Assembly (NCBI RefSeq): GCF_009914755.1 | Contig: NC_060929.1 | Origin: the human T2T-CHM13v2.0 reference genome, Homo sapiens | Strand: one strand, 5' to 3' | Length of the DNA: 64,000 nucleotides | In this document: positions 37,039-64,000 of the stretch, piece by piece | How the letters are laid out: every line of letters begins with the position of its first letter | Position numbering within the stretch: position 1 is the first letter of the stretch | The notes under the pieces: model-generated | Database searches by the model: none | Told to the model about the DNA's origin: nothing | The model's input: the letters and a program-made list of their open reading frames with translations, nothing else | Translations under genes and position numbers: made by a program

Positions 37039-38389
37039 TGAACCAAAGCATAACTTTTGAAAGAGGAAGTACATGGGATCATCATAATAAATAATACAGT
37101 GTCCTGAGTGATGAGCTTTCTATTATGCTACAGGAAGAATTTCATTAAAAATAATAATAGAAAAACATTTAAAAATTTTACCATTTTATTAACATTCTAT
37201 ATTTTTCTACTCCGTTAAAATGCAGAAGTCAGAAAATGGAACATTTCCCTTTCACTATTTCTGCCATTAAAAAAATAGTACATTTTCTTGATTGTTTGTC
37301 ATCTTAAACTACCTTTATCCTTTTGCAAGGTAGACTCTTCAGTATCTTTTTTAATCACAACAGATTAGAATATATACGATGGTACTTCGGAATATATGAA
37401 TTACATTTTAATTTCTGAATGTTTATCTTATTTAATGTCAAATATATATATGTGTGTGTGTGTGGGTGTGTATGTATAGTACTTGTATGGCTTAAGGCTT
37501 CAAATGCTACTCAAAATAGTATCCACACTAAATCATTTTCTCTGAAAACACTCCTTCCTGTGTTTTGAGCTGGGCTCTGGGTAAACAAAAAAAGGAGTAA
37601 AGCTTAATAATGTTTCCTGTATCTCCAGTCTGCTGGCCTTCTCGTTCAACCAAGAACTTTGATTTGCAGATTTGGTGTTAACAGCCTTTGTAACATTGTC
37701 CTCGTTTTGAGGAAATTATTAAATCTTTATCAACCTTTGTAATTGGGTAGGCATGTTAACCTAAATGGATAGGAATTTTGATAGTGGCTCATTAGTTTAT
37801 TTAATAAAAGTGTTTAAAGCTATATCTGACACAAAATAAGTATTTAAAATGTATGAGTATTTATGCTACTGTTACTGCTATTACTATTACTACTATCACT
37901 TCTACAAATGTTCCTGGAGAAACACCAGGTTGATGGGTGTGCTCTGAATTTTGGAGAAGGATTTAATGTACAACAAGGTCATTTTGATGTGTTTTTAGTT
38001 CTCCTGGCAAGTGCCCAGCTCATCACATGGTTCCAGAGCAGACATCTGTCTCCATGGTCCTTTATTCAGTAGCAGTTAACTCAGCACCTTTCACAGCTTT
38101 AATTCATTTTCTAAAGGTTAACAGGCAAAGAACAGGTTCAGAAAAGGTCTAAATCATGTTTTTATTTTTCCAGGTGGATGACTTTAACAAAAGATCATGA
38201 CTCCATTGTGTATAAGAGCAGTTAAATTCTGCCTTTGTTTCAGAACATATCTGTAGGTTATTAAGTTTTTCTTTTGCTTCAGTATTTTCAAGGGGAAGTG
38301 AGAAAGTTGTAATTTCTTTGTAAGAAGTTTCTCTGTAAAATATGTGAGCTACTGTCACAAGACCCAGTACAGCTGAGGGACTTAGCCGC

Positions 38390-43150: not shown

Positions 43151-44270
43151 TGAGGTTCTTTTTGCTGGTTGTAATTATCCTGCAAGTGTCTGGGATCTCA
43201 GTGGAATAAAAGGCCAGCCTCCAGACAAATGGAAATGAGTCTAGGAGATGAAGGAAGAAATAAGTGAAAAGGTTCCCAAAGCAGGCAGTTCTGCAAAGGG
43301 AGCAAACATAAAATTGAAGAGGTATATGAAGGTCTTCTTCAATTTACCTTAATAATAAAAGTATCTATTTCCTTGGCTTTCAGAATTTAGCCCTCAGGGC
43401 AGTTAAATTGGAAATGATAGCGGTATTGTGTAATGTTTACTTTGAACCACACATGTAAGAATGATTTAGGAACTGGATTCTATTACAAATGCCCACATAA
43501 ACCTCTAGGGCTCCCTCATCCTGCTCACATTTCAAACAGCTTGTCTCTCCACATCACCGCAAAGCTGCTTTTCTTGGGAGAATTCATTATAAAACTCGAA
43601 GGGCAGTTTGGACGAGGGCAACCATTAGGCTAGATCACTTACAAACTGGTGTAGGTATTGGAAAATGAATGGGAATAAATACTGTTTGAAATACTACAGG
43701 GAAGCTTACAAGCCTCAGCTTCCTGGTGTGACATCATTATTGTGCATGATCCTAGAATGAGTGGGAACGTGCCCACTTAGGCTTATTTCCATAGAAATGT
43801 CATTGGATTTTTTTTTTTTTAAACCAAGGAAACTCGAATCACAAAGTTGGTTCCAAGGCTGGTTCTTACACCATCTTGACAAGCCATTCATTCACACACC
43901 ATCTCAACAAGTGACATCATCTTGACAAGACCTTGATCTTCCTCTGTACATCCAGGCAGCCAAGCTGTATGAACTGGAGCTTTCCATCTATAGTCTTCTG
44001 TTTCTTAGTATGCGGGTTATACAAGTGTTAACTCAGTGTAGATTGAGAAAAAAGAAAAACTACCAGCAAATGTTCTATTGAGACAAAAAAGATATGGGAG
44101 AGTGTTTTCAAAAATTATAAAGTTCTAGGCAAATGGCTGCCTTCTTATTACTAGTATTATAACTTTTGTTAAATATTTGATCGATTCCTCACTTTCCCTT
44201 AACAGAAATATGTTTAATGGACATTGGAAAGAGAAAATGTTGTTGAATTCTGAAAGTTTAGGTAAGTTAT

Positions 44271-44648
44271 TGTATTAGTTTGTGAGGACTGTCATAACAA
44301 ACTACCACATTCTGGGTGGTTTAAACAAAGGAAATTTATTTTCTCACTGTTCTGGAAGCACAGAAGATCAATGTCAGCAGGGTTAGGTTTTTCTGAGGCC
44401 TCTTTCCTTGGCTTGTATATGGCTGTCTTTTCCTTGTATTGTCACATGGTATTTTCCCTGTATATGTCTGTATTCAAATTTCTTCTTCTTGTAAGGACAC
44501 CAGTCATACTGGACACCCTAATGACTCTATTTTAACTTAATTACCTCGTTAAACACCCCATCATCAAATATAGCCACATTCTGAAGTACCGGGGGTTAGG
44601 ACTTCAACGTATAAGCCTGGGAAGGTGGATATAACTCAATCCATAACA
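44271..44648 (-). mobile_element. MLT1 (MaLR) solo LTR
   Basis: tgtattagttt…cataacaaactaccaca…gggggttaggacttcaac…tccataaca with perfect TSD GTTAT at 44266-44270 and 44649-44653. Confidence 0.88.
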
Positions 44649-45955
44649 GTTATTGCATCACAGTTTTTACAGCTTTATTGAATGATAACTGTCATACAAT
44701 CAACTACACGTTTAAAGTTCACAATATGGTGACTTTTGACATCTGCATATCACTGAGTTGAAATAATGAACACCAAGAACTTTTCTGTGACCCTTTGAAA
44801 CACATACTTTCCATCACTTCAATACCCCTGTTGTTGCAAACAACCGAGGGTCTGCTTTATGTCACTATAGAGTACTTTACATTTTCTAGAACTTTCTATG
44901 AATTGAATCATATGCTATGTACTTTCCTTTTCTCTGACTTCTTTCAGGCAGCATAAATGTTTTAAAATTTGTTTATGTTGTTGCATGCATCAGTAGTTTA
45001 TCCCTTGTTATTGCTGAGTAATATTCCATTGTATGAATATATCATGATTTGCTGATTCATTCACATTTTGATGAAAATTTGGGTTTTTCCAGTGTTTGGC
45101 TATTTCAGATAAAGCTGCTGTGACTTTGGTGCACAGGAATTTGTGTGACTATATGCTTTTATTACTTCAGCAGATCCCTAGATATGGAATAACTGGGCCA
45201 TGTGAAGGTAATGTTTTTAGAAACTTCCAAAGTGTTTCCCAAAGAGGTTGTGCTACTTTATAAGAAACGGTTTTATTTTTATTTTTTATTTTTTTGCTTC
45301 ACATCCTCACCAGGTATACTTGTTCTGGTCAGTCTCTTTTGATTTTAGCTATTCTCATGTTTGTGTTGTGTTATCTCATTGTGCTTTTAACCTGCATTCT
45401 CCTAATGACTACTGATGTTGAGCTTATTTTCAGCTGTTTATTTGCCATTCATTTATCATCTTTGGTAGAGTGTCCGTTCAAAACTGTTTTCCATATTTTA
45501 TATTTTATCATTAGGCTGTAAGAGTTTTATTTTATATATTCAGAAAAAAGTTTTCATCAAATATATATTTTTTCCCATTTGGTGACTTACAGTTTCATTT
45601 TTAATACATATTTGGAGAGGAGAAATTTTTAATTAAAATGAAGTCCAAAGTTCTTTTCCTTTTTTAAAATTGTTAGTGCCTTTTGGGTTCTACTTAAAAA
45701 CATCTGCCAAGCTCAAGGTCTCTAAGATTTTCTCCTATGTTTTGTTTGGGAAATGTTATGATTTTATCTCTTAAATTTAGGTTTATGACCCATTTTCAGG
45801 TAGTATTTATGTATTATGTAAGGTAAGGGTTGTGGTTCATTTTTCATGCATATGGATAATGGATATCCACTTGCTCCAGCACTATTTATTTAAACAATTG
45901 GACTTTCCTTATTGTGTCACCTTGGTACCTTTGTCAAATTTGAATTGCTCGTCAA

Positions 45956-46264
45956 TAGTTGACCCTTGAACAACACAGAAGTTAGAAATGCTGATTCCCT
46001 GTGTAGTCAAAAATCCACATATAATTTTTGACTTCCCCTAACTTAACTACTAATAATTTGCTGTTGACTGGAAACTTTACCAGTTTCATTATGGCACTCA
46101 TTATGAAGTTTTTTATCCTCATTGTCTTCATGTTGAATGCAAATAAGAGGAGGAGGCAAAAGAGGAGAGGTTGGTCTGGCTGTCTCTTGAGTGGCAGAAG
46201 TGCAAGAAACTCCACATATGGTGGAACTGCACAGTTCAAAGTTGTGTTGTTCAAAGATCAACTG
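45956..46264. mobile_element. Tigger2-derived MITE (Tigger2a/MER8-like)
   Basis: Terminal inverted repeats agttgacccttgaacaacac … gtgttgttcaaagatcaactg|ta. Confidence 0.8.
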
Positions 46265-46962
46265 TACAGTGTGGCTGTGTTTCTGGATTCTCTAACCTGT
46301 TCCATTGATTTCTATGTTTATCTTTATGCCCATACAAAACTAGCTATTATAGGTTTACAAAGTTTTGAAATCAAGTAGTGTAATTCTCCAACTTTGTTCT
46401 TCTGTTATAAAATATGTTATTTCTAGGTTCATTGCATTTCCATACAAATTTTGGAATGAGCATTTCAATTTCTGCAAAAAAAATTATTCTCAAACTTTAG
46501 TTTTAATTGCATTGGGGAAAACTGACATCTTTACAATACTGAGTCTTTCCTTCATAAAACATAGGATACTCTTCTATTTATTTAGACATTTAATTTCTTT
46601 CAGCAATGCTTTATAAATTTTAGTGTACACATTTTAGAAAGTTTTTGTCAAATTTATCTAAATATTTCATTTTTTTCATGTGCTTTTAAATGGTATTTTT
46701 AAAAGTTTCAATTCCCAGTTGTTCATTGCTGGTGCGTAGAAATGTAATTGATTTTTGTATATTGACCTTTTATCGTGTAACCATGATAACTCAATTATTA
46801 GTTATAATAGCTGTTTTTTAAATGGCTTAAGATTTTCTACATAGATAAGCACATAATCTGCAAGTAAAGAAAATTATACTTTATTATTTCAGTCTTCGCA
46901 TACTTTATTTCTTTTTCTTGTGTTATTGCACTGGCTATAACATTCAGTATAATGTTGAATAA

Positions 46963-47321
<359 letters not shown>

Positions 47322-49068
47322 CATTTTTTTTTATCATTGCATATGATGTTACCTCTAGGGTTTTCATAGATGCCCTTTATCCAGTTTCAGAAGCTTCATT
47401 CTATTTTTAAGTTGCTGAGAATCTTTGCCATTAATGGATGTTGGATTTTGTTAAATATTGATGGCATGTATTGAGATGTACATAGGGGTTTTCTTTATTG
47501 GTCTGTTGACATGGTAAATTAAATGGCTTAATTTTTGAATAATACAGTAACTTTGTCTTAAGATAAACCTATGTAGCCATCATATTATCCTTTTTACATA
47601 TTGTCAGATTTGATTTAAAATGTTTTTTAAAATAACTTTTGTATCTATTACCATGACATATATTGGCCTGTAGTTTTCTATTTTGCAATGTCTTTTTTTT
47701 TTCTTAATCAGGATAATACCTCACAGAATGAGTTCTGGGGAATGTTCCTTCCTTTCTTTTTCTGAAAATATTTGTGTAGAATGGGTATTATTTCCTCCAT
47801 AAATGTGTGGTATAATTCACCAGTGAATCTACCTAGAGTTTTATTTGTGGGAATGGTTTTATTTATAAATTCAATTAGTTTAATAGGTATTGGAATATTC
47901 AGGTCATCTACTTCTTTGTGAGGAAAATTTGGTAGTGTGAGACAATTTCTTTTTGAATTAGTTTTTTAAGGAATTTGTCTTTTTCATTCAAGTTGTAAAA
48001 TTTATTGACTAAAGTTGCTTATAATATTTCTTCATTATCATTCTACTGTCTATAGAATCTGTTGTGATGGATTCTCTCTTTTTTCAAATGACTAGTCAGG
48101 CTAGAAGTTTATCAGTTTTGTTTATCTTTTCAAATAACCAGGATTTAGTTTCATTGGTTTTATCTGTTGTGTTTCTGTCATCTGTCATTGATTTCTGCTC
48201 TTAACTTTATATTTTCCCATCTTCCATTTACTTTGGGTTTAATATGATATTTTAACAAAATCTTGTTTCTTAAGGCAGAAGCTTAGGTAACTGATCTGAA
48301 ACCTTTCTAATGTAAGTGTTAACACCATAAATTTCCTTTTAATTACTACTTAAGTTGCATCTTATGATTTTTGATGTCATGACTTTATTTGAAAATACTC
48401 TAATCTTCTGTTATTATTTCCTCTTTGCTTGATGTATTATTTGGTAGTATGTTGTTTACTTTACAAATATTTATAGATTTTCCAGATATCTTTCTGTTAT
48501 GAATTTTTAATTTAATTTCTATGGTTGGAGAACATACTTTGTATAATAAAAGACTTTTGAAATGTTTGACACTTCTTTTATGACCTGTAATATGGTCTAT
48601 CTTGGTTATGTTTCATGTTCACTTTTGAACAACGTGCATGTATAGAAACTTATATAAATGTTAATTAGCTCAAGTTGATTTTATGGTGTTGTTCAAACCT
48701 TCTATGTCCTTGCTGACTTTCTGTCTACATGTTTTATCAATATCTGAGAAAGGGGTGTTGAAATCTCCAGCTATAATTGTGAATTTAATCTCTTAATTAT
48801 TTCATTTTTACCAGGTTTATTATCTTGATATATTTTGAAAACACATATTTTTATGTACAAAAAATTTAGAATTGTTATTTCTTCTTGATGAACTGGCATG
48901 TTTTCATTATGAAACTGCCTTCTCTCTGTCTCTGGTAATGTCTCTTTTCTTAAAACTAGTGTTTTCTTAAAACTGGTGTTCTGCAAACACCATGGAAAGC
49001 TAGTTGTATACTTTTTATTCTAGGTGAGGGCAGACACATCAATTAGAGATAATAAGATTTGTAAGTGA

Positions 49069-50650
49069 TTTGTGGTTTAGATTTGCATTTCTCCAATGAT
49101 TAGTGATGGTGAGCAATTTTTCATATACCTGTTGACCATTTGTATGTCTTCTTTTAAGGGATGTGTATTCAAATCTATGCCCATTTTTAAACCAGATTCT
49201 TTGTTTTTTTACTAAGTTTTTTGAGTTTCTTATATATTCTGGCTATTAGTTCCTTGTCAGATGGATTTTGTAGATTATCTCTTCACTTTGTTGATCGTTT
49301 ACTGTGCACAAGCTTTTTGCTTGATGTGATCCCATTTGTCCATTTTTGCTTTGGTTGCCTGCACTTTTGGTTTTATCAAGAAATCTTTACCCAGACCAGT
49401 CTTCTGGAGAGTTTCCCCAGTGTTTTTTTTCTAGTAGTTTTATAGTTTCAGGTCTATTATTTAAGTCTCTATTTTGATTCCACTTTGTATATGGTGAGAG
49501 CTAAGGGTCTAGTTGCATTATTCTGCATATTAATATTCAGTTTTCCCAGCACCGTTTATTGGAGAGACTGTTCGTTCCCCAGTGCATGTTCTTGGCCCCT
49601 TTGTCAAAAATGAGTTGACTGTAAATACATAGACTTATTTCTGGGTTCTCTATTCTGTTCATTGGTCTTTGTGTCTATTTTTTCTGCCACTACCATGCTG
49701 TTTTGGTTATTACAACTTTGTAGAAAACTAAAATAAAATATCATCTCACCCACGTTAAAATAACTTTTATTTTAAAAAAGGCAATAACAGATGCTGGAAA
49801 GAATGTGGAGAAAGGGGAGCCCTCCTTGTACATTGTTGGTGGGAATGTAAATTAATTAGTACAGCCACTATGGAGAACAATATGGAAGTCGCCCTCAAAA
49901 TAAAAGTAGAACTATCATCTAATCCAAAATAAAAGTATCTATTAATTCAAAATAAAAGTAGAACTATCATCTAAACTGCTGGGCATATATCCAAAAGAAA
50001 AGAAATGAGTATATCAAAGAGATATCTGCACTGCCTTGTTAATTGCAACACTATTCACAACAGCTTCAAGACATAGAATCAATCTAAGTGTCCATCAATT
50101 AATGAGTGGACAAAGAAAATGTAATATATATACACAATGGAATATTATTCAGCCCCCCAGAAAATAAAATCCTGTCATTTGTAACCACATGTATGGAACT
50201 GGAGGCCATTATGTGGAGTAAAACAAGCCAACCACAGAAAGATAAATATTGCATGTTCTCACTAATATATGAGAGCTGAAAAAGTTGACCTCATGGAGAT
50301 AGAGAGTAGAATGAAGATTGCCAGAGGCTGGGAAACGTAGCGCAGAGGTGGGGGATAGAGGGGTGCTAGTTAATGGGCACGAAAATACAGTTAGATAGTA
50401 GGAATAAGATCTAGTGTTCGGTAGCACAATAGAGAGATCATAGTTAACGACAATGTATTGTATATTTCAAAATAACTAGAATAGTGAAATTTGAATGTTC
50501 TTAACATAAAGAAATAATAAATGCTTGAGGCAATGAGAATATCCCAATTACCCTGATTTGATAACTGCACATGGTATGCTTGTATCAAAGCATCACATGT
50601 ATCCCATAAATATGTACAACTGTTACGTATTCACAAAAATTAAAGATAAA
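49069..50650. mobile_element. L1 (L1MA-like) with 5' inversion (twin priming)
   Basis: Antisense ORF2 piece at 49069-~49722 joined to a sense 3' end at ~49723-50650 with A-rich tail; flanking degenerate TSD aagatttgtaagtga / aagatttatgggtga. Confidence 0.85.
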
Positions 50651-52073
50651 AAGATTTATGGGTGAAAAAATTGTCTATTTTTTCAGGCCGCACTTGTCAA
50701 AAGGAAGCTGAATAGTTGGCTTTTAATATGTAATATTAAATAGGGTTTATCAACTGTTGTGTTCCCATGGTCTTTAGAATATGAATATGTAGAAAACAAA
50801 AGTTGAAAACTTAAATTTAGTTCATTATTTAATTTTTTTCTAGAATGGTGATTTTCCTAGTTTGTTAACTATGTTTTAGCCAATTTTGATTTTAACTATT
50901 AAAATCTTTCCTTTAATGGTTTTAATATGGTGTTGATTTTTGGTTATACAATTTTACACAACCAGAGAGTCACTTTCTTTAAGAGATCCTAATGTACATG
51001 GAAAAATAGAAAGCCTTCATCAGTTTTATTTTGGAGAGCAGGTGGGCCCCTATGCTACAGGCTTTCCAAAAGAACTCAAACAGATACTGCACCCCCACCT
51101 GAGGAGTAATGCTGTATACATGTAAATCATTTCCTATATGCCACAATGGACATCTGGGTCTTGATGTGAACCAAAGCAAAGGTCAATCTGTGGAAAACAT
51201 TAAGTTTTTGCTCTTTTTCTCCTGTTTGCTTTTATTCTTTTATTTATAGTGAAGATAATACTGTTCTAGAGAGAATTATTAGCTTTCACCTTATCAACAC
51301 CTAGATTAAATATTGGAATAAAATCGTAAGGGTGTGATCTTTCTTTTCTATTTAGAGACAGGCCCTCACTATGTTGAACTCAAGCGATCTTCCCACCTCA
51401 GCCTCTCGAGTACCTGGGACTACTGGTGTGTGCCACCGAGCCCAGCTCATGACCCATTTTCAATTCTCATCTTCCAAAAGAAAAAGATTTCTGGACTCAC
51501 GGTATGGTGTGTTATGCTTGAGGGCTAAAACACATAGGAGATGTCCCATTGCTGGCAGCTTCCTGTGGGTTTTGTATTTGGGATGGCAAAGAGCATGCAT
51601 AGGCTCTTGAAGAGGGACTTTATTTGTTCAGGTGACTTCCTTTGAGCTCTCCTGGATTAGTCCATCTCTGCAGGAAATGGGACAACACCGGCTTTGATAA
51701 AACCAAAGAGCTGAGGCAGAAACACTGCCCACCACTGCAGGCACAGTCCGGGCTCCACAGCCGGAAGTGTGCATTTTTCTAGGCAACCAGCACAAGCATG
51801 GGGACTTGGCTGAGGCCAGTGCTGTGATTTTGGCCTGAGGGGCAGTGCTGGGCAACTTCCCTACATCCTCCCTCAAGGTATCCCTGACCAAAAGCAGATG
51901 TACAAATAAACACGCATAAAACCTGAAGTAGAAATATTCAATACCTGGCTTAATATTATAACTTTTAGTCATAAGCTTCTAGAACTGTAAGTCATGTACA
52001 AATAAAAACTACTTAGGTATTTTTAAAGACAAGCATTAATGTGACCATCCCTCCATATTCTTTGTTCTCCCAG

Positions 52074-52120
52074 AAGAATCTGTAGCAAGATCCAGGACTC
52101 AGGAGAGAGGACATGTGGAG
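52074..52120 (+). pseudogene. SEMA5A-like exon remnant 1 (juxtamembrane micro-exon)
   Basis: tttgttctcccag|AAGAATCTGTAGCAAGATCC…ACATGTGGAG|gtcagt reads (E)ESVARSRTQE/ERTCG, versus recalled SEMA5A EVSVARSSSVEEKRCG. 47 nt with one frameshift; both splice sites are intact. Confidence 0.8.
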
Positions 52121-54539
52121 GTCAGTTATTTACCTACTTACTTTCTGATATTTTCTAATGATTTCTTTTTTTAATCTTTTATAAATTGTTTCTTTGTCTT
52201 GTGGCCAAAATTGAGACTGGAGACACTCCGTGGACCCCAAATGCCATGTATGTTAATTATAAATGTGTTATTCAATAATTGATGGCTAGATAATACCTAG
52301 TTGAAATATCACTGGAGTGAAACAGAATTGAAGCATTTATGTACATTGGCATTGCAGCTCCATGACGGTCAGTGCCAAGTCTCTAGTCCTCTGGAATGAA
52401 CTCAATTTTAATGGAGCATGAAGATTTACCTACATATTAGAGGCATTCTACAACCTTGGATGAAAAAAAGAAAAACACATTCTCTGCTTCAATTCCATAA
52501 TAAATTTGGATTTTTCAGTCGATGCCATCTGTGTGCCATGAAAGTGCTCACCTATGTGTCAACTGTACTTGGAGAAGAGGGGCTTACTGTTAGCAACACA
52601 GATGCTCTGGTTGACCCTGTCTGGGCTAAAAGGTGGGAGTTTTTCAAGGGCCTTGAGCACCAGGTAAATGACACATACCCCATTTCCATCCTAAAATGCT
52701 GCTGCTGTGTGTCAGAGCCAGCAAGGCCAACTGATTACCCAACTCACGTTGATATTGATCAAACTTACAGAAAATTTAATTACTCTATAATCTTCAGAAA
52801 TGATGTTTTAACTCTTTAGGCTGCTGCTATTGACACATCAACATAATAGGCAGATGAGAGAATGGATGGATTTTATTTTAGAACTGACAGGTTAAAAACA
52901 AGCGATTATCTGACAAAGCTGCTCTAGGATGCTTAGGGAGACAATGTAGACTTTCTTCTGTTTATTGAAAAATCAGACTTTGCTTAACCAACAGGATGGT
53001 TTCCATCCCTGCTTACTGGCCGATAATGGCAAAAAAAAAAAAAAAAAGCCACGTTGAAAAGAAAGCGCCACACCAAGCAGATTCAAAAACGATTTAATGG
53101 GCACTATTTTTCTCTATGCAGAAAATGTGCTTCAATTCAAATTTTTCATCTTAGAGAGCTATTTTTAGTTGCATGAGACACAAAGACTATATAATCATCA
53201 TAAAGATGTCAGCTGGCCCCAGCCTTTCCCAGGCACCTGCTGGAATGATTCATTTGACTAATGGCACAGTATCTGCATATGGAGACCGTCATGCATCTTC
53301 CCTATGTTATAATGAAACATGAGTTATCAGTGCAGCAGGAAGTATTTCCTTCGGTACAAGGCATTGACCCTGAGAGTGCTAACAGCTAAAGTACAGAGAA
53401 GTAAGAACTTGTGTGAAATCAGCTCTTGCTTATCTAAGTACAGCTTCAGTGTTACAGTTAAAGTCCCAGTGGCTGCTGGTGGAATGCCCCCTGGATGCTT
53501 CATCCGGTTGTCCCAGGTTGGGAGTTCTCCAGCCCTAGAGGCTTCATGACTGAGTCAGAAAAGGCCAAAGATTCTGAAACCACTGACCAACTAAGCTGCA
53601 AGTGAAAAGTTGAGGTGGTTGTCAGGGAGTGGGTGATGCTTGTGGAATGTTCTAGTGCTGTCGTCTGGGATGATCCAACCCTTAGTGCTGAGTACATTGG
53701 GCGCCTGTGCTGGGAACTGCATTGCCCACTGGGACTTCAGTGGTCAGGAGTGTGTTGTGAGTTCTGCCTGACAGCGAGTCAGAGAGAAGGCAGCCTCCCT
53801 TCACAGTGTGCACCCAAGGGGGCAGATCCAGCTCCAAAGTCCTGGGTTCCTGGAACATGGTGTCTAGAACAGCCAAGGAGCATGACTTAGAGGGAAAAGC
53901 TCAGGGTTTAGGGACAAAAAGGGATAGTCAACCTCTGCCAGTAGCACAGGTGAGGTCTTGATGGCATCTCCCGACCTGTGGCTCAGCTTCCCATGGGGCC
54001 TCTTGGCCACTGCAGGGTTACATGAGGTTCAGGACGGACTCAGGCAGAGCCCTGGAGACCCAAGCCTGGTGGGAACTCAGTGAAGAGTGGCCGAGTGACC
54101 CTTTGACATCAAACCCCATGGCTGGCGCTGGCAGGACAAAGTCTCTTCCAGGTGGCGGGGGTCACGAGCACAGGGAAGGTGGGTTGGAAAACCCCTGGGG
54201 AGGAGGCTGGAGTGGTTAATGTGCAGACACCCCTGGCCTCGGGTGCAGGGGAAATCCTACAGGCCCTTCCCCTTGTCCTGAGATCCCTGAAGGCTTTGCT
54301 TTGCAGCCAGGTGGACTTGCCTGCCATTGCAGTGATGCCCAGCAAGCATTTCACGTCTCTCCCTGGGCTGCTCCTGTCTGTGGATAGGCTTCTCACCCTG
54401 CTACTCAAGCTGAGGCCCCTGAGCTAGGGCAGCCCTTCTCACATGCCTGCCTTGTTCTGCACCCAAAGGCTGAATTGTTCAGGAAGGGAAGTAAGGGATG
54501 GGGAAGGGAGCCAGTACCACTTTGCTCCTGTCCCCCCAG

Positions 54540-54722
54540 GGTTCAGTGTGTTCCACATGATCACGTGGGGCTCAGCCTGCTGGTCTATACCTACAGTAGC
54601 AGCACCAACAGCAATCCCACAATGCGACTGTCGTCCACCCCGTCTCGCCTACCCTCCTCAACACCAGCATAACGAACCACACCAACAAACTGGACAAGTA
54701 CGACTCGGTGGAGGCCATCAAG
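54540..54722 (+). pseudogene. SEMA5A-like exon remnant 2 (transmembrane/cytoplasmic exon)
   Basis: With frameshifts it reads FSVFHMI/VGLS[del]LLVYTYS/QHQQQSHNATVVHPVSPTLLNTSITNHTNKLDKYDSVEAIK, versus recalled SEMA5A FNMFHMIAVGLSSSILGCLLTLLVYTYCQRYQQQSHDATVIHPVSPAPLNTSITNHINKLDKYDSVEAIK. Acceptor intact; donor mutated to AAG|ataagg. Confidence 0.9.
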
Positions 54723-55299
54723 ATAAGGAGTTGGCAGCATCAGCAGCAGCCAGGTGTGCACAGAAGGCAAGTGGACGCGGGGACTTTCAGCAAAGCTCTG
54801 TGGGGGTGGCGCTGGTGGCGGAGTTGGGGACAGGTAAGGGTTCCCCTTATGAAAAACTGCCTTTCTAGCTTTGGGGCGCCTGTGAAACCATGGCGTGTCA
54901 CCTTGGGCACATAGATTATAAAGGAACAAAGGAAAAGCAAGAAATAAAGATCTGCCCCATGTTGGGTAATTGTCCAATGTCCAGCTCTGCCTCAGCCCAA
55001 ACCGTGGCTTCCGTGTCCCAAGGGTCAGAGAAAAGGCGGCAGGATGGAGGGGAGGATGTCGCTTCAGCACCTGCCTCTAGATGGCAGCCTGAGACAACTA
55101 TTGTATCGCTATCAATTACACCTTCAGATCTCTTTCCAGGGCAATAAAAGTGCCTCACATACTATAAGGCAGCTTCCCATTTCTGGTGTGAGGTGGCGTG
55201 TTCTGTATTTTTTCCCCCATTGGACAATTAAATCCCTAGTTTTTAAAGCAGAAATTTTGTGTGGAGGGCCAGCCTCCTAGTCCGCAGGAAGAAGGGCTG

Positions 55300-55700
55300 C
55301 GAAGGACATCAGCTTTGGACTCAGCTGACCTCAGTCGGGTCAGACGCTCACACCCTCTAGGCCTCCATTTCTTTATAAGCTGGGGATAACGACCTTCACT
55401 TAGAGCAGTGTTGTGAGGATTTCATGAGGTAATTTCTATAAAACGCCTTCAACAGTGCATGACACTTAAGTGCTCATGAAATTGGGGTCTTGTTTGAGGG
55501 ATTTCATGTGGTGGTTATAGCTGGAGGCTTGAAACAGGATGCCCTACAGCCATTTCTTACCAAAGTGGCGCCAGGTGAGGTACTTGGCCTCCTGTGTCTC
55601 AGTGTCTTCATCTTTCACACGGATGAAAGGCTGTGTATTTCCATCTTGCTGTAGGGTTTAAATGGGTGAACGTGCTCAGCAAAGGGTAGCTGGTAGTCTT
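55300..55700 (+). mobile_element. Two degenerate MIR copies
   Basis: MIR core phrases (gttgtgaggatttcatgaggtaat…, ctcagtgtcttcatctt…, gggtttaaatggg). Confidence 0.55.
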
Positions 55701-57001
55701 ACTTGTGCCTCCACACAAGGCTGCAAGGGAACCTGAAGAGACATGAAAGGCTGCGTTCAACCTCCCCTCTCACAGCTGTGGATGAAGGGAATTCTTCTGA
55801 ACTAGGTAAACCAAACATGATTTTCTCATTCATTTGATGATTTCCCTTAAAATCCTTAGGGAGTGTTGTGATTTCCCCTCTGTTGTACCCGCGTCATCTC
55901 CCTTTGTAATTAAAGTTTCTTCCCACTAGTTTGCCTGTACTCCCGGGGCCTCTGGTTGAACTGGGGTCAAGAATCCATCAGCTCCTCACATGAGTCAGGT
56001 GAAAGTCCTGAAGTGAAGCATCGTGAATTACACAGCCCTCACGGCCCCTCAGAACTGGGCTCCCAGAGGTGAGGAGGAGAAAGAGCAACTCGTTTTACAA
56101 GGAGCTCCCACATTCTCCTGTATAAAGAGGTCTTGAGAACTTTCCAAGTGAACTTCCAGGACAAAAGAAATGGGTTTGGCTACATGTGATTCCAACATCA
56201 GTGCTGGGTGGTCACTCCAGGAATCTGGATGGTCATTTAGCTGGTGCTAAGTTCTCTCTTGGGATGTGGAGCCTTTTGAATTAATCAGAAGTCTTGCTGC
56301 CATGTGAGCAGACTCTAGTGGCACTGACCTGTCCCCTGATCATTCGTAAATCTCTCAGACCCCTCCATCACATGGCTGGCCTATGCCAACCATCTTCATC
56401 ATTCTCCAGTCATCCCAATACTTACCCTCCACCTGTGAGAGTGTAACGATTTGAAATTTCAGCTTACTTTAACATCATGAATGAGGAAGATTATATCCAG
56501 AAATAGGTACAATAGTCACTTTTCAAACAAACTGCACATGGAACAAATGAATAGTAATTCAGACATTTGGAATATGAGGAATTTAGCTGAAGAAGGTCTT
56601 TCAGGAACTCTTATGAATGTACCTTTCTGTGATAATCAGAAATCTACTTATATGTCTACAGAACTCCACGGGGTAATACTTGGTAACATTCTAAGTGTCT
56701 CTTCATTGGAAATGAAGCATTTGCTGAGTTTCTTGAGTTTGCTGTTACAATAAATAATGCTTAGCTTCTCTTGAAAATATTGTGGCAAAAGCAGAAAAAT
56801 AGACTGGAAGACATAGAAAAATATTTGCCAATTCAGTTACTAGATGATAAGTTCTTATTGAAGTGAATAATCTGTGGTAAAACACCATGAAAAAGCACAT
56901 TTTAGCATCACAGGACTTTTGGAGAGAAGTTGAGTCGTAACGTAATAGTCTCTTTCTCAAAGTCTACTTATTGAGTATTTTTTTAAACATTTTTTTTCCT
57001 G

Positions 57002-57118
57002 GAGTTTAATAATAAAACGATTCTAGGGGAAAGAAGCAAATACTTCAAGCCACATCACAGAAACACCTCTTCTAATGTCTGCTTTCTGGGTCTCGATCAT
57101 TCTGATGAATTCCAGTGA
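57002..57118 (+). pseudogene. SEMA5A-like exon remnant 3 (terminal coding exon)
   Basis: Reads EFNNKTILGERSKYFKPHHRNTSSNVCFLGLDHSDEFQ*, versus recalled SEMA5A AFNKNNLILEERNKYFNPHLTGKTYSNAYFTDLNNYDEY*. Preceded by a poly-T tract whose AG has become TG. Confidence 0.82.
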
Positions 57119-58536
57119 ATTCCAAGAGCTTTTATATTTTTCATCTCTCATAATTTCCCATTGCCCTAAGTATATGCTCAGTGCCTCCCCACGTTTCCGA
57201 GGCTTCAGAGGTGAAGAGTGATATATTGCAAGCACACTTCAAGCCATGAGTGCCCATCCTTGCCAAAAATCACATCCTTTAAATGCAACAAGAATTACAT
57301 ATGGCCGAGTGACAATTCAGTCTATAATACAGGAGCACAGCTGGGGGAGCCATGGGAAGCACTGCAGGTCACAGCGTGAAGTTGATGATTGTGTTTCGCC
57401 AGTTTCCTCTAAGAAGTGGATTGTTTTCTTGAGCTTTTTTTTTTTTTTTTCTTAAGTAATAGTCTTATACTTTTGGAATAGTCTTATTTTTATTTGAAAA
57501 AGTCTTTAGGAACAAGACATCTTCTCACTTTTGATTGAGAATATTCAAGATGTTTAATTCGAGGTAACAGGCATTTAGTCTGAGAATCCATTCCCCTCAT
57601 CCCCGCCCCAGGAGTGCCTGGGTTCGTGGCATTTGATAAAATGAAGAAAATAAATGTGACCACACAGATATTCACCATGGATCTCCCATGTTCCTCTGTC
57701 TGAATAACACTGTGGAATTCTTGGAAGCAGCTTGTGTGTTTTAATCTTGGAAGCTCAGGAATTCCACCTGGTCTGCACCTGCAGAAGCTACAGTAGGCAC
57801 CCCAACTTGCTGCTGATGCAGTTTCTGTGCCATTGCTGGTGGAGGCAGCGGAGCAGAGGCGCAGGCACAATGAAGCGGGGACGTGTTCTGCAGATTGCTG
57901 CTAAACTCGCTTTATTCTGACTTTTGGATTTCATGACATTCCAGGGAGCTTCCTGCCATGCTGTTGGCCTGGAAGCCCACCTGACTGGTCCATAGTGACG
58001 TCCTGAAGAGCCAGTCTGTAAAATAACCAACAACTTGTTTAGCTTTTGGATAGACTCCACACCTCCTCTTTCTCTGCAAAGAAAAATCTTGAATATTTAT
58101 GGATGCCAATTAGGGAAAGTATTGAAAATAGTGAAATATAATTAAAAACAACATGTATTTTTCATGTTATGAAAAATATTGAAAGAACTGATATTAATGA
58201 AAATTAATATTTTATTTTCCATCTCCCCAGTGTAACTAATTTGTGGCAATCACCCCCTACCAAGAGCAGTAATGCTGTGTAAAGCTGGCTTTCTGGAGTC
58301 CGCTGGATCCATACGAAGTGTGATCCCTGGTTTCCTCTGTTACTTGCTGCATCCAAGCCAGGGGAGCAGGAGATGCTCAGCTCTGGTGCCTTTGATTTTA
58401 TGTCATTGCTGCCTTCCTGCCTGCTCAGTTCACCCACCCCCGTTTCCCTCCGTATGGAGGCAACAGCATTTCAGGATGTACCTTGGGGTGTCAGGGTAGC
58501 TGCAAGTAAGGGTTTTTATGATCCTCATGGTCTCAT

Positions 58537-59329
58537 TGATACAGACAGGAGACAGGGAAATACTGGATAGAAGAGGGTGGGTTGCTGGCAAAGGCTCCAC
58601 CCTCAAGCCTGAATACCTGTGGCCCTAAGTGAGAACAGGCATTCCTGTTTTTGTGCCCAAAAAGCTGCCTTTTGGCCCACCATGCCTTCTATCCTATACC
58701 CTTATAAACGCCAAACCCCAGGCTCCAGAAGCAGGTGAGAAGATGAGGAGACAAGCCGATAAACAGCAAAATGATGCAACAGAGAAAGAGAGAAGAGGAG
58801 GAGTCTCTGAATGCCAAGAGGAGCTTGGCTGTGGATGGTCAGAGAGGAGTTTAGCTGCTGGGTGGCCAAACTCTAGGAGAAGATCCCACTCTATCCCCCT
58901 TCCAGCTCCCCATCCATCCTACTGAGAGCCACCTCCACCACTCAATAAAGCGCCCGCATTCTCCACTCTTCAAGTCCCTGTGTGACCCAATTCTTCCAGG
59001 ATGCTGGACAAGAGCTCAGGATACAGAAAGTTGTCACACTGTCCCTCTGCCCTTGCAGAAAGGCAGAGGGGGCACAGAGCTGGTTAACACTTAAGCCGTC
59101 TGCAAGGCAGAGCTAAAAGAGCATTGTAACACTGGGGTTGCAGGCACCCACCCCAGATGCTACTGTGGGGCCAGAGCCCAAAGCTCTCACCCCAGCTCCT
59201 GCACCTTCCCGTCTGTGTGGTCCCCCTCCCGTAAGGGGGGTTTGAGCCTACGGCGGTGGAACAGAGGGCAGCACCCCTGTGAGGGGATTGCATGCCCTGT
59301 GAGGGGAACCAGGGAACTCTCCTGTCTTG
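58537..59329 (+). mobile_element. LTR1-family solo LTR (ERV1)
   Basis: Begins tgatacagacaggagacagggaaatactgg…ccaccctcaagcctg; AATAAA at 58944; ends …agggaactctcctgtcttg; 4-bp TSD tcat/ttat. Confidence 0.8.
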
Positions 59330-59449
59330 TTATCACTGATCATTGATAAGCATTTCAGAGTGGGATAACATCATTCATAGAGGTTCCCAAAAAGAAAAAA
59401 AAAAGAGATACATTTCTCACAAACGGATCCATAACCAGGACATCTTGAT

Positions 59450-59765
59450 TTCTTCTAGTTTTTGATGATTATGAGAAAAAGCTGCTATAAACATTTGCAT
59501 GCCAGTTTTTGTGTGGTCATACATTTTTAATTCTGTTGGGGAAAACCAACAGGAGCACTATTGCTGGATCATATGATAAGGTTATGTTTAGCTTTGCAGG
59601 AAAGTACAAAATTGTCTTCTAAAGAGGCTGTATGACTTTGCATTCCCACCAACAATGAATGAGAGTTCCTGTTGCTCCACATCCTCACCAGCAATTGATA
59701 TTGTCGATGTTTTGGAACTTAGTCATCCTAGTGGGTGTACAGTGGTGTGTCATTGTTGTTACCTT
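59450..59765 (-). mobile_element. L1M antisense fragment
   Basis: ttgcattcccaccaacaatgaatgagagttcctgttgctccacatcctcaccagca. Confidence 0.8.
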
Positions 59766-60077
59766 TTAAAATTATCATTTAGCAGAAGAGCGATTGGTTT
59801 AGAACAATTTTAGCTATATTCTAAGCTATATTCTCGCCAGCCGTGGAAGAACTTTTGTTTTCCTGTGACTCTATAGCTTTTGCTTGTGTTTTCATGCCTC
59901 TCACTCCTCCTCTTGCTGTTACATGAACCGTCATGTGGTGGGTATATGCAGTGCTATTTGCCACCTCTACTGGAACCTCTTTCATAATGCATCTCTTCTT
60001 TAGGCTGGAAAGTTTGGGGTTCCTGCCAAAACTTTCTGGGGACACTTGTCACAGTTATAATTTCTGTATAACTTTTT

Positions 60078-60260
60078 TTTTTTACTTTTTCTTTTTTTAA
60101 TTTATTTTTTATTATTATTATACTTTAAGTTCTAGGGTACATGTGCACAATGTGCAGGTTTGTTACATATGTATACATGTGCCATGTTGGTGTGCTGCAC
60201 CCATTAACTTGTCATTTACATTAGGTATTTCTCCTAATGCTATCCCTCCCCCTTCTTCCC
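60078..60260 (-). mobile_element. Short 5'-truncated L1PA 3' end
   Basis: attatactttaagttctagggtacatgtgcacaatgtgcagg…cctaatgctatccctcccc, with perfect TSD ttctgtataacttttt at 60062-60077 and 60261-60276. Confidence 0.92.
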
Positions 60261-63200
60261 TTCTGTATAACTTTTTAATTTGCTTTTTATCTTTCTTTTT
60301 ACTGTAAGAAATGCAATTAAAGACCAATACTTTTAAACTTCACCAAGTAATTTAATCCCTCTAAGAGGAACCTGATGTCAAATGACATTAATCACAAATC
60401 ACAGTTTAATTTCTATGGTTGTTTCTGAATACAGTTGAAGATTGGCTGGTTTTCATGAGGAAGCTGGCTTTAGTCTTACATTTAAATTCTTTGAAAGTGA
60501 CTTCCAGTGCTATTCAGGGTCCTTTCTTGAGGCTAGACTCATCACCAATCTAATATTGATTTTACAGTGCACTGACAGTTTACAGGAAGGAGAAGGATGG
60601 AATTCCTGCACACTGGACAGCACGTGGCCTTCCCCATAGCTCCAGTGGCATGTGGCTTTGGTGAAACTTGGGGCTTTGTCACCTCTGAATGATGTGGACT
60701 CAGTGAATTCTAAGGAACTCAGGGACACTGGGTCAGGCTCTGCCACACAGAAGAGCCACAGTCTCCAGGCTCATGGCGTTCCCTCCAGAACTCCCCATTC
60801 CACTCTGAGCATATTTCTATGCTGCTGCTTCTTGTGACTTACATGAGGCATCTCAGCTTCTTCCTGTTTGTAGGGATGTTTCCCTAAGCCTGTTCAAGTA
60901 GATTCTCACTAGAATTAGCATGCATATTGGAGTAAAAAAGAACATTTAATAAATATGTGTGTTTCTGTGGGGCCGAGGCTCTAAAGGAATTGAAAGGAGA
61001 TTATAAACAGTGAATGAGTGTGAGGGCATCCCTGCTGGGGAGAAACCTCTGTCCCTAGAGAGGGTCCTTTCATGTTCATGTGGTCGGGGATGAGCCAGGG
61101 GTCTGGCCTCATCAGCTCACAAGTGACACCAAGAGAAAAGAAGCAAATGGAGGAAATGGTCAGATAAGTAGGTGATGTGAAAGGCAGGACCTGGTCACCC
61201 CAGCGAGCACTATGGCCAGTTCCCGGGGCCCGTGACCCACTGCACAGGTCCATGAGTCTGACTCTTGGACTCTGCCAGGATCAGCTGCCCAGAGTGCCAG
61301 AGTTTTCGCCAAGGGTGTCCTTAATTCCTTATTTATCAGCAAAAGAATGAAAATCATGGGAGTCAAAGCTTATTTTTCTGAGTGTTCCCACTGGAGTGTC
61401 TGGTGGAATTAGTGGGTCATGCCATCAAAGTCATGAACAAAGCCTCAACAGGGGTCTCCATGTCCCCAACTGGCCATCTAAGGGGATACATTGGCATGCA
61501 ATTGAATATCAAAGGAAATTTTACCTCAAAATATATCGTCTATACTCGGCTAATCATTTTGTGTGAATACTTTCTTAATGAACACTGAAGGTGCAAGCTT
61601 GATAATGTTTGGATTTGCAAATATCGTTAGGATACTTGAAAATGTTTTTCTAACTTTCAGAGTAAATCAGGAACATTAACACTGTCACACCACTTCCTGC
61701 ACCAATTTTGCTCCGTGGCCATCAACTTTCTTTAGCCCCAGGGTGTCTTTTACAGTTCCATGTTTTTTTTGTGTGTGTGTGCACGAATTTTTAGAGTATC
61801 TTTATTGCTTTTACCTGAGTTCAGCATTTCTGCCTCAAAAGATGGTTATGGGGTGCAAAACAGCAGGTAACAGGTACCACTAGCAGATACAATGAACCGC
61901 GTCTGACTCAAAGCAGTTGTTCTCCATTTGGGGGGGCTCATACTTTAATCCCATAGCTCTAGTAGTACATTTCTGCATAAGTAGAGTATTCCAATGGCAA
62001 CCTTAAATCAACTCATGTGCAAAACCTTTGTCATTCTTTTTAAAATGATTGCATTGGTCCTGTCCAGTACATCTATTTGTTGATGGTGTACTTGGTGATT
62101 TCTCTGGACACAACATAGTCAATATTTGATTACCAATCAGCAGATTATCTATGTCAGACACCAGAAAAACATTCTGAGTCCCCTGCTTCTCTGATCAGTG
62201 GGTGTGAAATGGGAGAAATAGGGTAATATTCACTTTGACCTGAGAAATGCACAGACCGTAATGTTAAATATTGGACAATGCATTGTCATGTTGGATACAA
62301 TATTTGCAGACAGGGCACTATTTTAGAATTTATTTCTGCTGTGCTTCTCCATCCAGGCCATGAATAGTAATAGATTTATAGTTGATTTAAGAAATTTTTG
62401 TAACTCAATAAATACTGAACTAAAGCATTCAAATTATCTGCTTTGAAACTGTAAATTTTTGTTCTAATCCTAACTCTCTTCTTTTTGGATACTGAAAAAC
62501 AATGAAGGTGATGCATTCTCCCAGCCTGATTGCCTCTCTGCAATGTCGAAGTATTGGCAGTGATTTCTAAAATAGCAATATTTTATACACTTTTTAAAAT
62601 GAGCTTAATATTAAAATGAATTATACATTTCTCTGAGCAGATGGAACAATGTTTTATTCAATTTTACTATAGTTTATTTTCAGAAATTTGATATAAAAAC
62701 ATCAGGAATAAAAACCTGCTCTCTCCTGAAAATATGGTTCATGTAGAAAAGTGGCTTAGAGATTAATAGAAACTTAATTTAGAGACCGATATCAACTGCA
62801 CAGTTACTAGTAAATGTCATTTCATATAGTCTGTTCTAAAGATCATATTAGCTCATCCACTAAAAAATCAAGCTTATTACTCATGATAAGAGTTGATATC
62901 AGATCTAGCTCAGATAAACTTATTGTACTATGTTGACAAGATAAAGCTAGCTAGTCAAGAACACTTTCACGAAAAAAGAGAAAAGTAGTACAAATTCTTT
63001 TCGCAATGCTAGTGGCAAAAAACCACTCTATGATATTTATTAAACTAAAATGTAGGTCAGACAAGAAATTGTATTCCACCTCTTATTTAATTAGTAATCA
63101 GAGGTCAGCAGTTCAAATGTGCTCCCTTTCCTTCTCAACTGTTTGGCAATTTAATGCTATGTAACGTGAAACACGTAAAATGTCTCAGTGTTAGATAAAG

Positions 63201-64000
63201 AGTCACAAGATAGAAGGGAGATCTGGATTCTGGAAAATCCAGACTTTCCTTCTAACCTGTTGCTAAGAAGATCACATTGCTGGCTTTCATCTCTGTAAGC
63301 GTAGACAGCTCAACTTCCTACAAGAATTTGCTAGTGCCTGTTTAAGGTGATGGTTTATCATTTCACCTGGATGTTACTGGTTTCAATTAGAAGCAGAGGA
63401 TTGACTGGATGTACTTTAAAGAAAATTGATTTTATAATTCTCTTTGAATTCAGAATAGAAAATGAACAATGAACGCATCAGCACTCTCCACCGTAGTGCC
63501 AGAAGAGCTGCAGGGGGTACTTAGAATTTAGGTTAATCCAGTATTCAGCATCCCAGAATATGATGTCACTCTAATTTTACACCTTCCCAAAACAAACAAA
63601 TGAATAAACAAACAACTTCCAAAACCACTGCAGTGTTTTACACTAGGAATGTCAGCATGACACCTATGGAAATTGGAATGTGTTACTGTTTCTCTTCAGA
63701 CAAGTCCATAGGTACAGAAGAAAGCAGGCACAGGTGGTGACAGCTGGCACAGATATGGTGCAGGGCTAAATGAGAGTCACCTAGAACATTGCCTGATTTT
63801 TACTTTTTAAAGTCAATTTCAAACTGCTTCACAAGTTTACAGAAGAGCTCACCCTTAGTTTTGCTTTCTCCCAGTACGGTGACTGTTGACCGACATAAAA
63901 CTTGAACTTAGGCACTGTTAAAGGTAGTACACTAAGCTTCAATCTGAGCATCTAGATTCAACACTGAAACTCTATATCACCTGCAAAAATATGTGTATAT

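What the first reader, a model, noticed from the sequence alone, without database searches (positions are those of the whole stretch)
52074..57118. Hidden unprocessed partial duplicate of SEMA5A (last three exons with introns) downstream of MTRR
Seen: three exon-like blocks in correct order and orientation at 52074-52120, 54540-54722 and 57002-57118, separated by about 2.4 and 2.3 kb. Each is preceded by a pyrimidine tract, and the ORF track misses them because of frameshifts. They translate to the SEMA5A juxtamembrane, transmembrane and cytoplasmic tail, including the near-identical NTSITNHxNKLDKYDSVEAIK. Lesions: 1-nt losses, a 27-nt deletion in the TM segment, donor GT>AT and acceptor AG>TG. 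Recalled: SEMA5A lies roughly 1 Mb away in 5p15.31 on the opposite strand. Inference: an old local inverted duplication rather than a retrocopy. I found no remnant of the preceding TSP1 exon, so the breakpoint probably lies in the upstream intron. I cannot tell whether this is already annotated.
Basis: partly seen in the sequence, partly recalled or inferred. Interest (0 to 1): 0.85.

Follow-up and report, generated by a model that had tools for sequence, protein, structure and literature searches.

The report
Decayed partial SEMA5A duplicate beside MTRR
This is a dead, intron-containing inverted copy of the tail end of the SEMA5A gene lying just downstream of MTRR; it is much longer than first described, is already partly annotated, and is ordinary except for a few oddly well-preserved stretches.

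Summary
The parent lies 1.12 Mb away on the opposite strand. Its exon translates 100% identical to named semaphorin-5A proteins.

Intron and 3'UTR homology shows a DNA-level duplication, not a retrocopy. It is not hidden: RefSeq LOC100422730 ('semaphorin 5A pseudogene', 54135-54722) covers the middle exon.

Unique collinear homology runs from 37676 to about 66947, which is 2.9 kb past the window end. That is about 29 kb of copy against about 30 kb of parent. The span covers three thrombospondin-repeat exons, which have left no trace, and 9.3 kb from the parent's last-exon acceptor onward.

Divergence falls into two classes. The background has K2P 0.41-0.63. Four blocks have K2P 0.11-0.15: an intronic block at 53100-54050, the 3' part of the middle exon, 57650-58450, and 60350-61600. 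Later gene conversion (about 45%) or purifying selection on both copies (about 30%) could explain the blocks. I could not separate these without other species' genomes.

The parts
37676..38352 (+). Most upstream detectable patch of the duplicate. It derives from the SEMA5A intron just upstream of the thrombospondin-repeat exon that encodes aa 768-839.
   Evidence: Collinear blastn hits to parent_rc 26141-26750 (E 3.6e-28 and 1.2e-6). The only other match in the 3.1-Gb genome is that SEMA5A intron.
43409..44275 (+). Two intron-derived patches, 43409-43783 and 44034-44275.
   Evidence: Collinear hits to parent_rc 32449-32818 and 34170-34412 (E 1.9e-26 and 1.4e-19). 43380-43780 is two-copy genome-wide. 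K2P 0.41-0.43.
50713..52073 (+). Intron-derived sequence between the lost last thrombospondin-repeat exon and the exon -3 remnant. A partial Alu at about 51353-51446 interrupts it.
   Evidence: Hits 50713-50947, 50971-51064 and 51477-52284 to parent_rc 38341-39899. 51450-51750 is two-copy. Partial Alu.
52074..52120 (+). Exon -3 remnant (juxtamembrane). 47 nt against 48 in the parent, with a 1-nt deletion. AG and GT are kept.
   Evidence: Alignment. Parental exon boundaries. SW z = 20.
53100..54050 (+). High-identity block A, intronic in the parent. 89.7% identity over 892 columns, K2P 0.112, including a 115-bp perfect run at 53149-53263.
   Evidence: Two-copy in the genome.
54540..54722 (+). 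Exon -2 remnant (transmembrane plus proximal cytoplasmic part). 183 nt against 212, with two 1-nt deletions, a 27-nt deletion and donor GT>AT. The 3' part (54573-54722) is 88.7% identical, K2P 0.125.
   Evidence: tblastn E 1.3e-13. RefSeq LOC100422730 covers it (hub table).
55931..57001 (+). Remnant of the last intron, at low identity (59%, K2P 0.61).
57002..57118 (+). Coding remnant of the last exon (cytoplasmic tail). Acceptor AG>TG. 38 codons plus TGA remain open.
57119..64000 (+). Sequence derived from the parent's last exon downstream of the stop codon (the 3'UTR by position). It continues to about 66947 beyond the window. It contains high-identity block C (57650-58450, K2P 0.154) and block D (about 60350-61600, K2P 0.115). 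A copy-specific dispersed repeat at 58535-59320 interrupts it.
   Evidence: Blocks C and D are two-copy. The repeat gave 1970 first-look candidates.

Best explanation
The region is a non-functional, unprocessed (intron-containing) partial duplicate of the 3' part of SEMA5A.

An ancient DNA-level duplication placed about 30 kb of the gene in inverted, tail-to-tail orientation about 1.09 Mb away, just downstream of MTRR. The 30 kb ran from the intron before the fifth-from-last coding exon that I could map, through the whole last exon, to 9.3 kb past its acceptor.

The copy never had the 5' part of the gene and decayed. Three thrombospondin-repeat exons are gone. The three remaining exon remnants carry frameshifts, a 27-nt deletion and two destroyed splice sites. 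Transposable elements have been inserted.

These steps are shown by the sequence comparison. The following steps are inferred.

(a) Age. The copy is older than the primate Alu and LTR insertions that interrupt either copy. Three shared tetrapod-type residues suggest it is younger than the split from ray-finned fishes. The order of magnitude is 100-200 Myr.

(b) Origin. A plain inverted duplication fits. So does an inversion of the intervening 1.09 Mb with staggered breaks, which leaves inverted duplicates at its ends.

(c) The four blocks that are only 11-15% diverged. I put about 45% on later non-allelic gene conversion between copy and parent, so that these tracts are effectively younger. 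I put about 30% on purifying selection on both copies.
For: Identity of the parent:
- Parental exon -2 (L005:4236-4445, minus strand) matched 151 proteins at E<=0.001 among 186 candidates, of which the best 120 are listed. Many of those listed at 100% identity are named semaphorin-5A, from primates and birds.
- The three upstream parental exons are Pfam TSP_1, above the curated cut-off.

Unprocessed duplicate:
- A collinear, same-orientation chain of hits runs from 37676 to 66947 against parent_rc 26141-56420. It has 12,930 aligned columns at 75.3% identity.
- All 7 stretches tested genome-wide had only the SEMA5A locus as a second copy.
- The reversed-sequence control gave 0 hits.
- Exon boundaries of the remnants coincide with the parental AG/GT boundaries.

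Disablement:
- Frameshifts, a stop codon in the projected frame, GT>AT and AG>TG.

Age:
- Background K2P is 0.41-0.63.
- Parental Alus at parent_rc 40680, 45063 and 51115 are absent from the copy.
- A copy-specific LTR element at 38389-40668 has LTR-LTR K2P 0.186.
- The copy shares 'VSP' and 'DE' states with tetrapod rather than fish SEMA5A.

Conversion sub-claim:
- The four blocks have similar K2P (0.112, 0.125, 0.154, 0.115), clearly separate from the background.
- Three of the edges I profiled are step-like, rising within about 50 bp at 53100, 57700 and 60350.
- Indels per substitution are no lower in the blocks (21 events per 326 substitutions, 0.064) than in the background (157 per 2513, 0.062).
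- CpG o/e in the non-coding blocks is as low as in neutral DNA (0.08-0.25). One-sided CpGs are split evenly, 16 window-only against 11 parent-only in blocks A, C and D up to 61100. So the parent is not frozen there.
- GC is higher in the blocks (0.45-0.49) than in the background (0.30-0.42).
Against: Against the core claim: nothing found.

Against the extension upstream of 50.7 kb:
- Only about 1.6 kb of about 13 kb aligns.
- None of the three thrombospondin-repeat exons expected there is detectable. SW z-scores are 0.9, -0.9 and -1.0. tblastn gives no collinear hit.
- The extension therefore rests on four unique collinear intron patches.

Against the conversion sub-claim:
- By recall, homologous conversion needs long, nearly identical stretches. 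The flanks were already far diverged when these tracts were last equalised. Four separate tracts would need either repeated events or prior preservation.
- A 115-bp perfect run in block A is very unlikely under a uniform 10% divergence (about 5e-4 by my arithmetic). That points to rate heterogeneity or to a more recent event.
- Transposon insertions at the block edges fit selection as well as conversion.
- A parental Alu sits inside block D. Its non-CpG divergence of 0.104 from a local Alu consensus is higher than the per-lineage divergence of the block as a whole (about 0.057), although close to that of its immediate flanks (about 0.08).
Confidence: 0.93

Rival explanations
1. The four high-identity blocks are cis-regulatory or RNA elements of SEMA5A that were duplicated with the gene fragment. 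Purifying selection has kept them in both copies. On this reading the 'pseudogene' locus is a functional non-coding locus.
For: - Divergence falls into two classes, and several block edges are step-like.
- Block K2P is 0.11-0.15. That is about half of what the copy alone should have gathered if it were neutral for the whole time. The two low-identity exon remnants (exon -3 and the last-exon coding part, about 75-77% identical) imply about 0.25 per lineage.
- Block A has a 115-bp perfect core.
- With one exception (the Alu in parental block D), transposon insertions lie outside the blocks.
- A RefSeq 'enhancer' feature (55459-56654, hub table) lies inside the locus, though not in a high-identity block.
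Against: - Indels are not depleted relative to substitutions in the blocks: 0.064 per substitution against 0.062 in the background. Block A has a 58-bp indel.
- CpGs are decayed to o/e 0.08-0.25. Only 5 of 32 aligned CpGs are shared in blocks A, C and D up to 61100.
- The parent has lost as many CpGs as the copy.
- No Rfam family matches any block.
- Cross-species conservation could not be examined.
Confidence: 0.3
2. The exon-like blocks are a processed (retrotransposed) SEMA5A pseudogene, later split by insertions.
For: None beyond the presence of exon and 3'UTR sequence.
Against: - The spacers between the blocks are homologous to the parental introns in collinear order, including a 950-bp intronic block at 90% identity.
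- Splice-site dinucleotides and polypyrimidine tracts are retained at the parental boundaries.
Confidence: 0.01
3. The remnants still encode a short SEMA5A-like transmembrane or cytoplasmic protein, or serve as exons of another coding gene.
For: - The last-exon remnant keeps an open frame of 38 codons.
- 36 codons of exon -2 are 86% identical in protein.
Against: - Frameshifts in exon -3 and exon -2.
- The transmembrane helix is lost through the 27-nt deletion.
- There is a stop codon in the projected frame.
- The donor of exon -2 and the acceptor of the last exon are destroyed.
- No upstream SEMA5A exons or start are present.
- The hub gene table shows no coding model here.
Confidence: 0.01

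Closest known systems
RefSeq LOC100422730, 'semaphorin 5A pseudogene' (hub gene table, window 54135-54722)
   Same: It is the same locus and the same parent. It covers the exon -2 remnant plus 405 bp of intron-derived sequence upstream.
   Different: The annotation is 588 bp with no exon structure. The homologous segment found here is about 29 kb (37676 to about 66947). It includes two further exon remnants at 52074-52120 and 57002-57118, and sequence matching 9.3 kb of the parent from its last-exon acceptor onward.
Unprocessed pseudogenes in inverted orientation to their parent on the same chromosome, e.g. SORD/SORD2P. PMC12632684 reports 411 such pairs (abstract and passages read).
   Same: An intron-containing partial gene copy, on the same chromosome, in opposite orientation. 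This geometry allows conversion or inversion.
   Different: - This pair is far older and more diverged, about 75% identity over aligned columns against the high similarity stressed in that paper.
- It lies 1.09 Mb apart.
- SEMA5A does not occur in that paper's text or in its one held supplementary file.
Duplicated conserved non-coding elements retained near paralogous genes
   Same: Non-coding blocks are much more similar between paralogous segments than the surrounding sequence, and than some exons.
   Different: - Those cases concern functional paralogous genes from whole-genome duplication, with cross-species conservation shown.
- Here the host copy is a dead gene fragment, and conservation across species is untested.

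Membership tests
Unprocessed (duplicated) pseudogene | Exon homologues of one parent gene, in parental order and orientation | tested here: met
   Three remnants in order on the + strand match parental exons at parent_rc 39677-39724, 45554-45765 and 47123 onward.
Unprocessed (duplicated) pseudogene | Introns retained and homologous to the parental introns | tested here: met
   Collinear intron matches lie on both sides of every remnant. All 7 stretches tested are two-copy genome-wide.
Unprocessed (duplicated) pseudogene | Disabling lesions, with no intact reading frame | tested here: met
   1-nt and 27-nt deletions, a stop codon in the projected frame, GT>AT and AG>TG.
Processed pseudogene (retrocopy) | Exons joined without introns | tested here: not met
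   2.4-kb and 2.3-kb intron-derived spacers separate the remnants.
Semaphorin-5A (parent identity) | Protein-level match to named SEMA5A rather than another semaphorin | tested here: met
   Parental exon -2 is 100% identical to entries named semaphorin-5A. The copy matches P0017 residues 1000-1035 at 86% identity.
Segmental duplication in the usual catalogue sense (at least 1 kb at 90% identity or more; threshold recalled) | At least 1 kb at 90% identity or more | tested here: not met
   The best blocks are 892 columns at 89.7% and 1026 columns at 89.5%. The whole chain is 75.3%.
Duplicated conserved non-coding element | Each copy conserved across species beyond the neutral rate | not testable with these tools
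   No other vertebrate genome is held. Only the paralogue-to-paralogue comparison was possible.
Non-allelic gene conversion tract | A tract younger than its flanks, shown by phylogeny with orthologues from other species | not testable with these tools
   Only indirect signs are available: two classes of K2P, a neutral-like indel-to-substitution ratio, and higher GC in the blocks.

The most novel reading that the evidence does not exclude
The locus is not just a dead gene fragment. Four elements have been kept by purifying selection in both copies for 100 Myr or more: a roughly 950-bp intronic element, the 3' half of the transmembrane/cytoplasmic exon read as DNA or RNA rather than as protein, and two roughly 1-kb 3'UTR elements. 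The MTRR-side copy would then work as a non-coding regulatory or RNA locus, descended from SEMA5A's own regulatory sequence.
Probability: 0.25. Interest if true: 0.55.

Novelty: already known. Interest (0 to 1): 0.28.

Why it matters
As a pseudogene it matters little. It is an annotated relic, and the useful results are corrections.
- The true extent is about 29 kb rather than the 588 bp annotated or the 5 kb reported.
- Two exon remnants are unannotated.
- The duplicate once reached at least three exons further upstream.

Practical points:
- Four stretches of about 150 bp to 1.2 kb at about 86-90% identity to SEMA5A, including a 115-bp perfect run, can mislead read mapping, primer design and variant calling in the SEMA5A 3'UTR and last introns.
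- The inverted geometry in principle allows conversion or inversion.

The one open biological point is why these stretches are far better preserved than the other two exon remnants. If selection is the cause, the locus would be an example of regulatory sequence outliving the gene copy that carried it.

Tried and rejected
**Remnants of the three thrombospondin-repeat exons**
- tblastn with the parental ORFs gave no collinear hit. The best hits (E 0.001-0.05) lay off the diagonal or in Alus.
- Smith-Waterman of each exon against its expected interval, with 200 shuffles, gave z = 0.9, -0.9 and -1.0. The positive control gave 20.0.
- tblastn with full-length semaphorin-5A P0017 detected 2 of the 7 parental exons in the window.

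**Homology upstream of 37676, towards the MTRR 3' end at 28236**
- There was no on-diagonal hit at E<=10 except one at E 0.45.

**Other searches**
- Pfam on the two translated remnants: 0 families.
- Rfam over 37000-64000: only Alu-derived matches and chance-level hits.
- PDB: parental exons match thrombospondin repeats generally. The solved Semaphorin-5A chain covers other repeats.
- Literature: 0 papers for 'SEMA5A pseudogene', 'LOC100422730', 'SEMA5AP1' or 'semaphorin 5A pseudogene'. The searches gave nothing on this locus.
- PMC13176653 (one passage read) shows only that MTRR and SEMA5A are neighbours in a tortoise. It also names the chromosomes carrying their orthologues in human, caecilian and coelacanth.
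- PMC12632684 does not list SEMA5A in its text or its one held supplement.

**Separating conversion from selection**
- Transition/transversion ratio, CpG decay, shared CpGs, GC content, edge sharpness and the Alu inside block D all fit both readings.
- Only the undepleted indel-to-substitution ratio leans towards conversion. Only the 115-bp perfect run leans towards rate heterogeneity.

**Parent polyA site**
- I could not place it with the tools. Candidate signals are listed.


Full report
**Observation**

A search of the window's own genome with 54500-54760 found one other copy, at C5:8984231-8984469 on the minus strand, 77% identical.

I fetched 90 kb around that place and 20 kb beyond the window end.
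- Block 1 (52074-52120) is 47 nt against a 48-nt parental exon flanked by AG and GT. It carries one 1-nt deletion.
- Block 2 (54540-54722) is 183 nt against 212 nt. It has two 1-nt deletions, a 27-nt deletion in the transmembrane segment, and donor GT>AT.
- Block 3 starts at 57002 behind a TG where the parent has AG. It still reads as 38 codons plus TGA.

A control with the reversed parent gave 0 hits at E<=1e-3, against 345 for the real parent.

**Identity of the parent**

The translation of parental exon -2 matched 151 proteins at E<=0.001 among 186 candidates, of which the best 120 are listed. Many are 100% identical over the 70 residues and are named semaphorin-5A, from primates and birds. 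Fish and shark entries are 90-94% identical.

The three parental exons upstream are Pfam TSP_1 domains above the curated cut-off.

tblastn with a named 1074-aa semaphorin-5A (P0017) recovers seven consecutive exons (aa 692-1074) in the parental stretch. In the window it recovers two: aa 1000-1035 at 54615-54722 (86%, E 1.3e-13) and aa 1040-1074 at 57011-57112 (46%, E 0.099). Exon -3 is too short for tblastn but is clear at the DNA level, with z = 20 against shuffles.

**Kind of copy**

The spacers between the blocks are homologous to the parental introns, and the sequence after block 3 is homologous to the rest of the parental last exon. This is an unprocessed DNA-level duplicate in inverted orientation, not a retrocopy.

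The inner ends of the two copies are 1,094,633 bp apart and their 3' ends face each other.

The hub's gene table shows that RefSeq already names 54135-54722 'semaphorin 5A pseudogene' (LOC100422730). The locus is therefore known, though only its middle exon remnant is covered.

**Extent**

With a scoring scheme suited to low identity, the collinear, single-copy chain runs as follows:

| Window | Parent_rc |
|---|---|
| 37676-38352 | 26141-26750 |
| 43409-43783 | 32449-32818 |
| 44034-44275 | 34170-34412 |
| 50713-51064 | 38341-38737 |
| 51477 to 66947, nearly continuous | 39084-56420 |

- That is 29,272 bp of copy against 30,280 bp of parent.
- There are 12,930 aligned columns at 75.3% identity.
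- The three upstream patches tested, and four downstream stretches, each have the SEMA5A locus as their only other match in the 3.1-Gb genome.
- The duplicate ends 2.9 kb beyond the window. In the parent it ends 9.3 kb past the last-exon acceptor.
- I recall a SEMA5A 3'UTR of about 8 kb but could not place the polyA site with the tools.
- The parental interval holds three thrombospondin-repeat exons. None is detectable in the window.
The exons were lost by deletion or decay inside a longer duplicate.
- No homology was found between 28236 and 37676.

**Insertions since the duplication**

In the copy:
- An element with two LTRs at 38389-38755 and 40309-40668, with LTR-LTR K2P 0.186.
- A dispersed repeat at 58535-59320, with 1970 first-look candidates in the genome.
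- An Alu at 65552-65826.
- 54760-55920 is single-copy and has no parental counterpart.

In the parent:
- Alus at parent_rc 40680, 45063 and 51115.

**Age**

Background K2P is 0.41-0.63. That is about 0.2-0.3 per lineage, against 0.05-0.125 for 19 of the 22 Alus measured against a local Alu consensus.

The two low-identity exon remnants are 75-77% identical. The parent protein has hardly changed across jawed vertebrates, so these exons give a similar per-lineage figure for the copy.

The copy shares 'VSP' and 'DE' with tetrapod rather than fish sequences. That is three positions, so the support is weak.

I read this as a duplication after the fish split and well before the primate Alu burst, on the order of 100-200 Myr. 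This is inference.

**The unusual part: two classes of divergence**

Four blocks have K2P 0.112, 0.125, 0.154 and 0.115:
- Block A at 53100-54050, which is intronic in the parent.
- The 3' part of exon -2.
- Block C at 57650-58450.
- Block D at about 60350-61600.

Everything else is at 0.41-0.63, apart from one shoulder at 0.33. The intronic block is better preserved than the two other exon remnants.

This is too similar even if the parent had been frozen and the copy neutral throughout, which would give about 0.25.

Two readings remain.

Later non-allelic gene conversion is favoured by:
- The similar K2P values of the four blocks.
- The step-like rise at 53100, 57700 and 60350.
- An indel-to-substitution ratio no lower than in the background, 21/326 against 157/2513.
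- Neutral-like CpG depletion, with CpG losses symmetric between the copies.
- Higher GC in the blocks.

Purifying selection on both copies is favoured by:
- The difficulty of converting between sequences whose flanks were already far diverged (recalled requirement for long identical stretches).
- A 115-bp perfect run in block A, which a uniform 10% divergence would give with a probability of about 5e-4.
- Transposon insertions lying at block edges rather than within them, apart from the Alu inside parental block D.

The measures I could compute scale alike with time and with rate. Without other species I cannot decide. I put conversion at about 45%, selection at about 30%, and a mixture or other cause at the rest.

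**Origin**

A plain inverted duplication fits the tail-to-tail geometry. So does an inversion of the intervening 1.09 Mb made with staggered breaks, which leaves inverted duplicates at its two ends (a recalled model). Neither could be tested.

One passage of PMC13176653 says MTRR and SEMA5A flank an interferon gene on one tortoise chromosome. It also names the chromosomes that carry their orthologues in human, caecilian and coelacanth.

**Verdict**

- It is an ordinary old unprocessed pseudogene with one unexplained feature worth a look in multi-species alignments.
- No paper was found on the locus.

Noticed in passing
window 38389-40668: A retroelement with two LTRs (38389-38755 and 40309-40668; 82% identical, K2P 0.186) is inserted into the duplicate. 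A related element lies downstream of SEMA5A at C5:8966148-8968429 (74% over 2.4 kb).
   Followed up: partly
window 58535-59320: A 776-bp dispersed repeat (1970 first-look candidates genome-wide, about 77-81% identical to other copies). It is present in the copy but not in the parent and sits at the right edge of high-identity block C.
   Followed up: partly
window 54760-55920, overlapping the RefSeq enhancer feature at 55459-56654: This 1.16-kb stretch inside the pseudogene's last intron is single-copy in the genome and has no counterpart in the SEMA5A intron. About 460 bp of the annotated enhancer lies in it, and the rest lies in low-identity intron-derived sequence.
   Followed up: partly
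parent locus L005, C5:8978592-8978886 (parent_rc 51115-51409): An Alu inserted inside the parental counterpart of high-identity block D and absent from the copy. Its non-CpG divergence from a local Alu consensus is 0.104, which bounds the last equalisation across that site.
   Followed up: partly
parent locus L005, C5:8987270-8987360 (parent_rc about 42640-42730), opposite window 53050-53140: The parent carries a roughly 42-bp tandem duplication exactly at the left edge of high-identity block A. The copy has one unit.
   Followed up: no
window 47003-47341 and 51353-51446: A full-length Alu and a partial Alu on the minus strand. They also give sub-threshold Rfam matches to mir-1268, mir-3135 and SRP RNA, which are Alu-derived look-alikes.
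   Followed up: no
parent exons -3, -2 and last (L005/L006): The SEMA5A transmembrane and cytoplasmic tail is extremely conserved. The 70 residues of exon -2 are 100% identical between human and birds and 90-94% identical to sharks and teleosts.
   Followed up: partly
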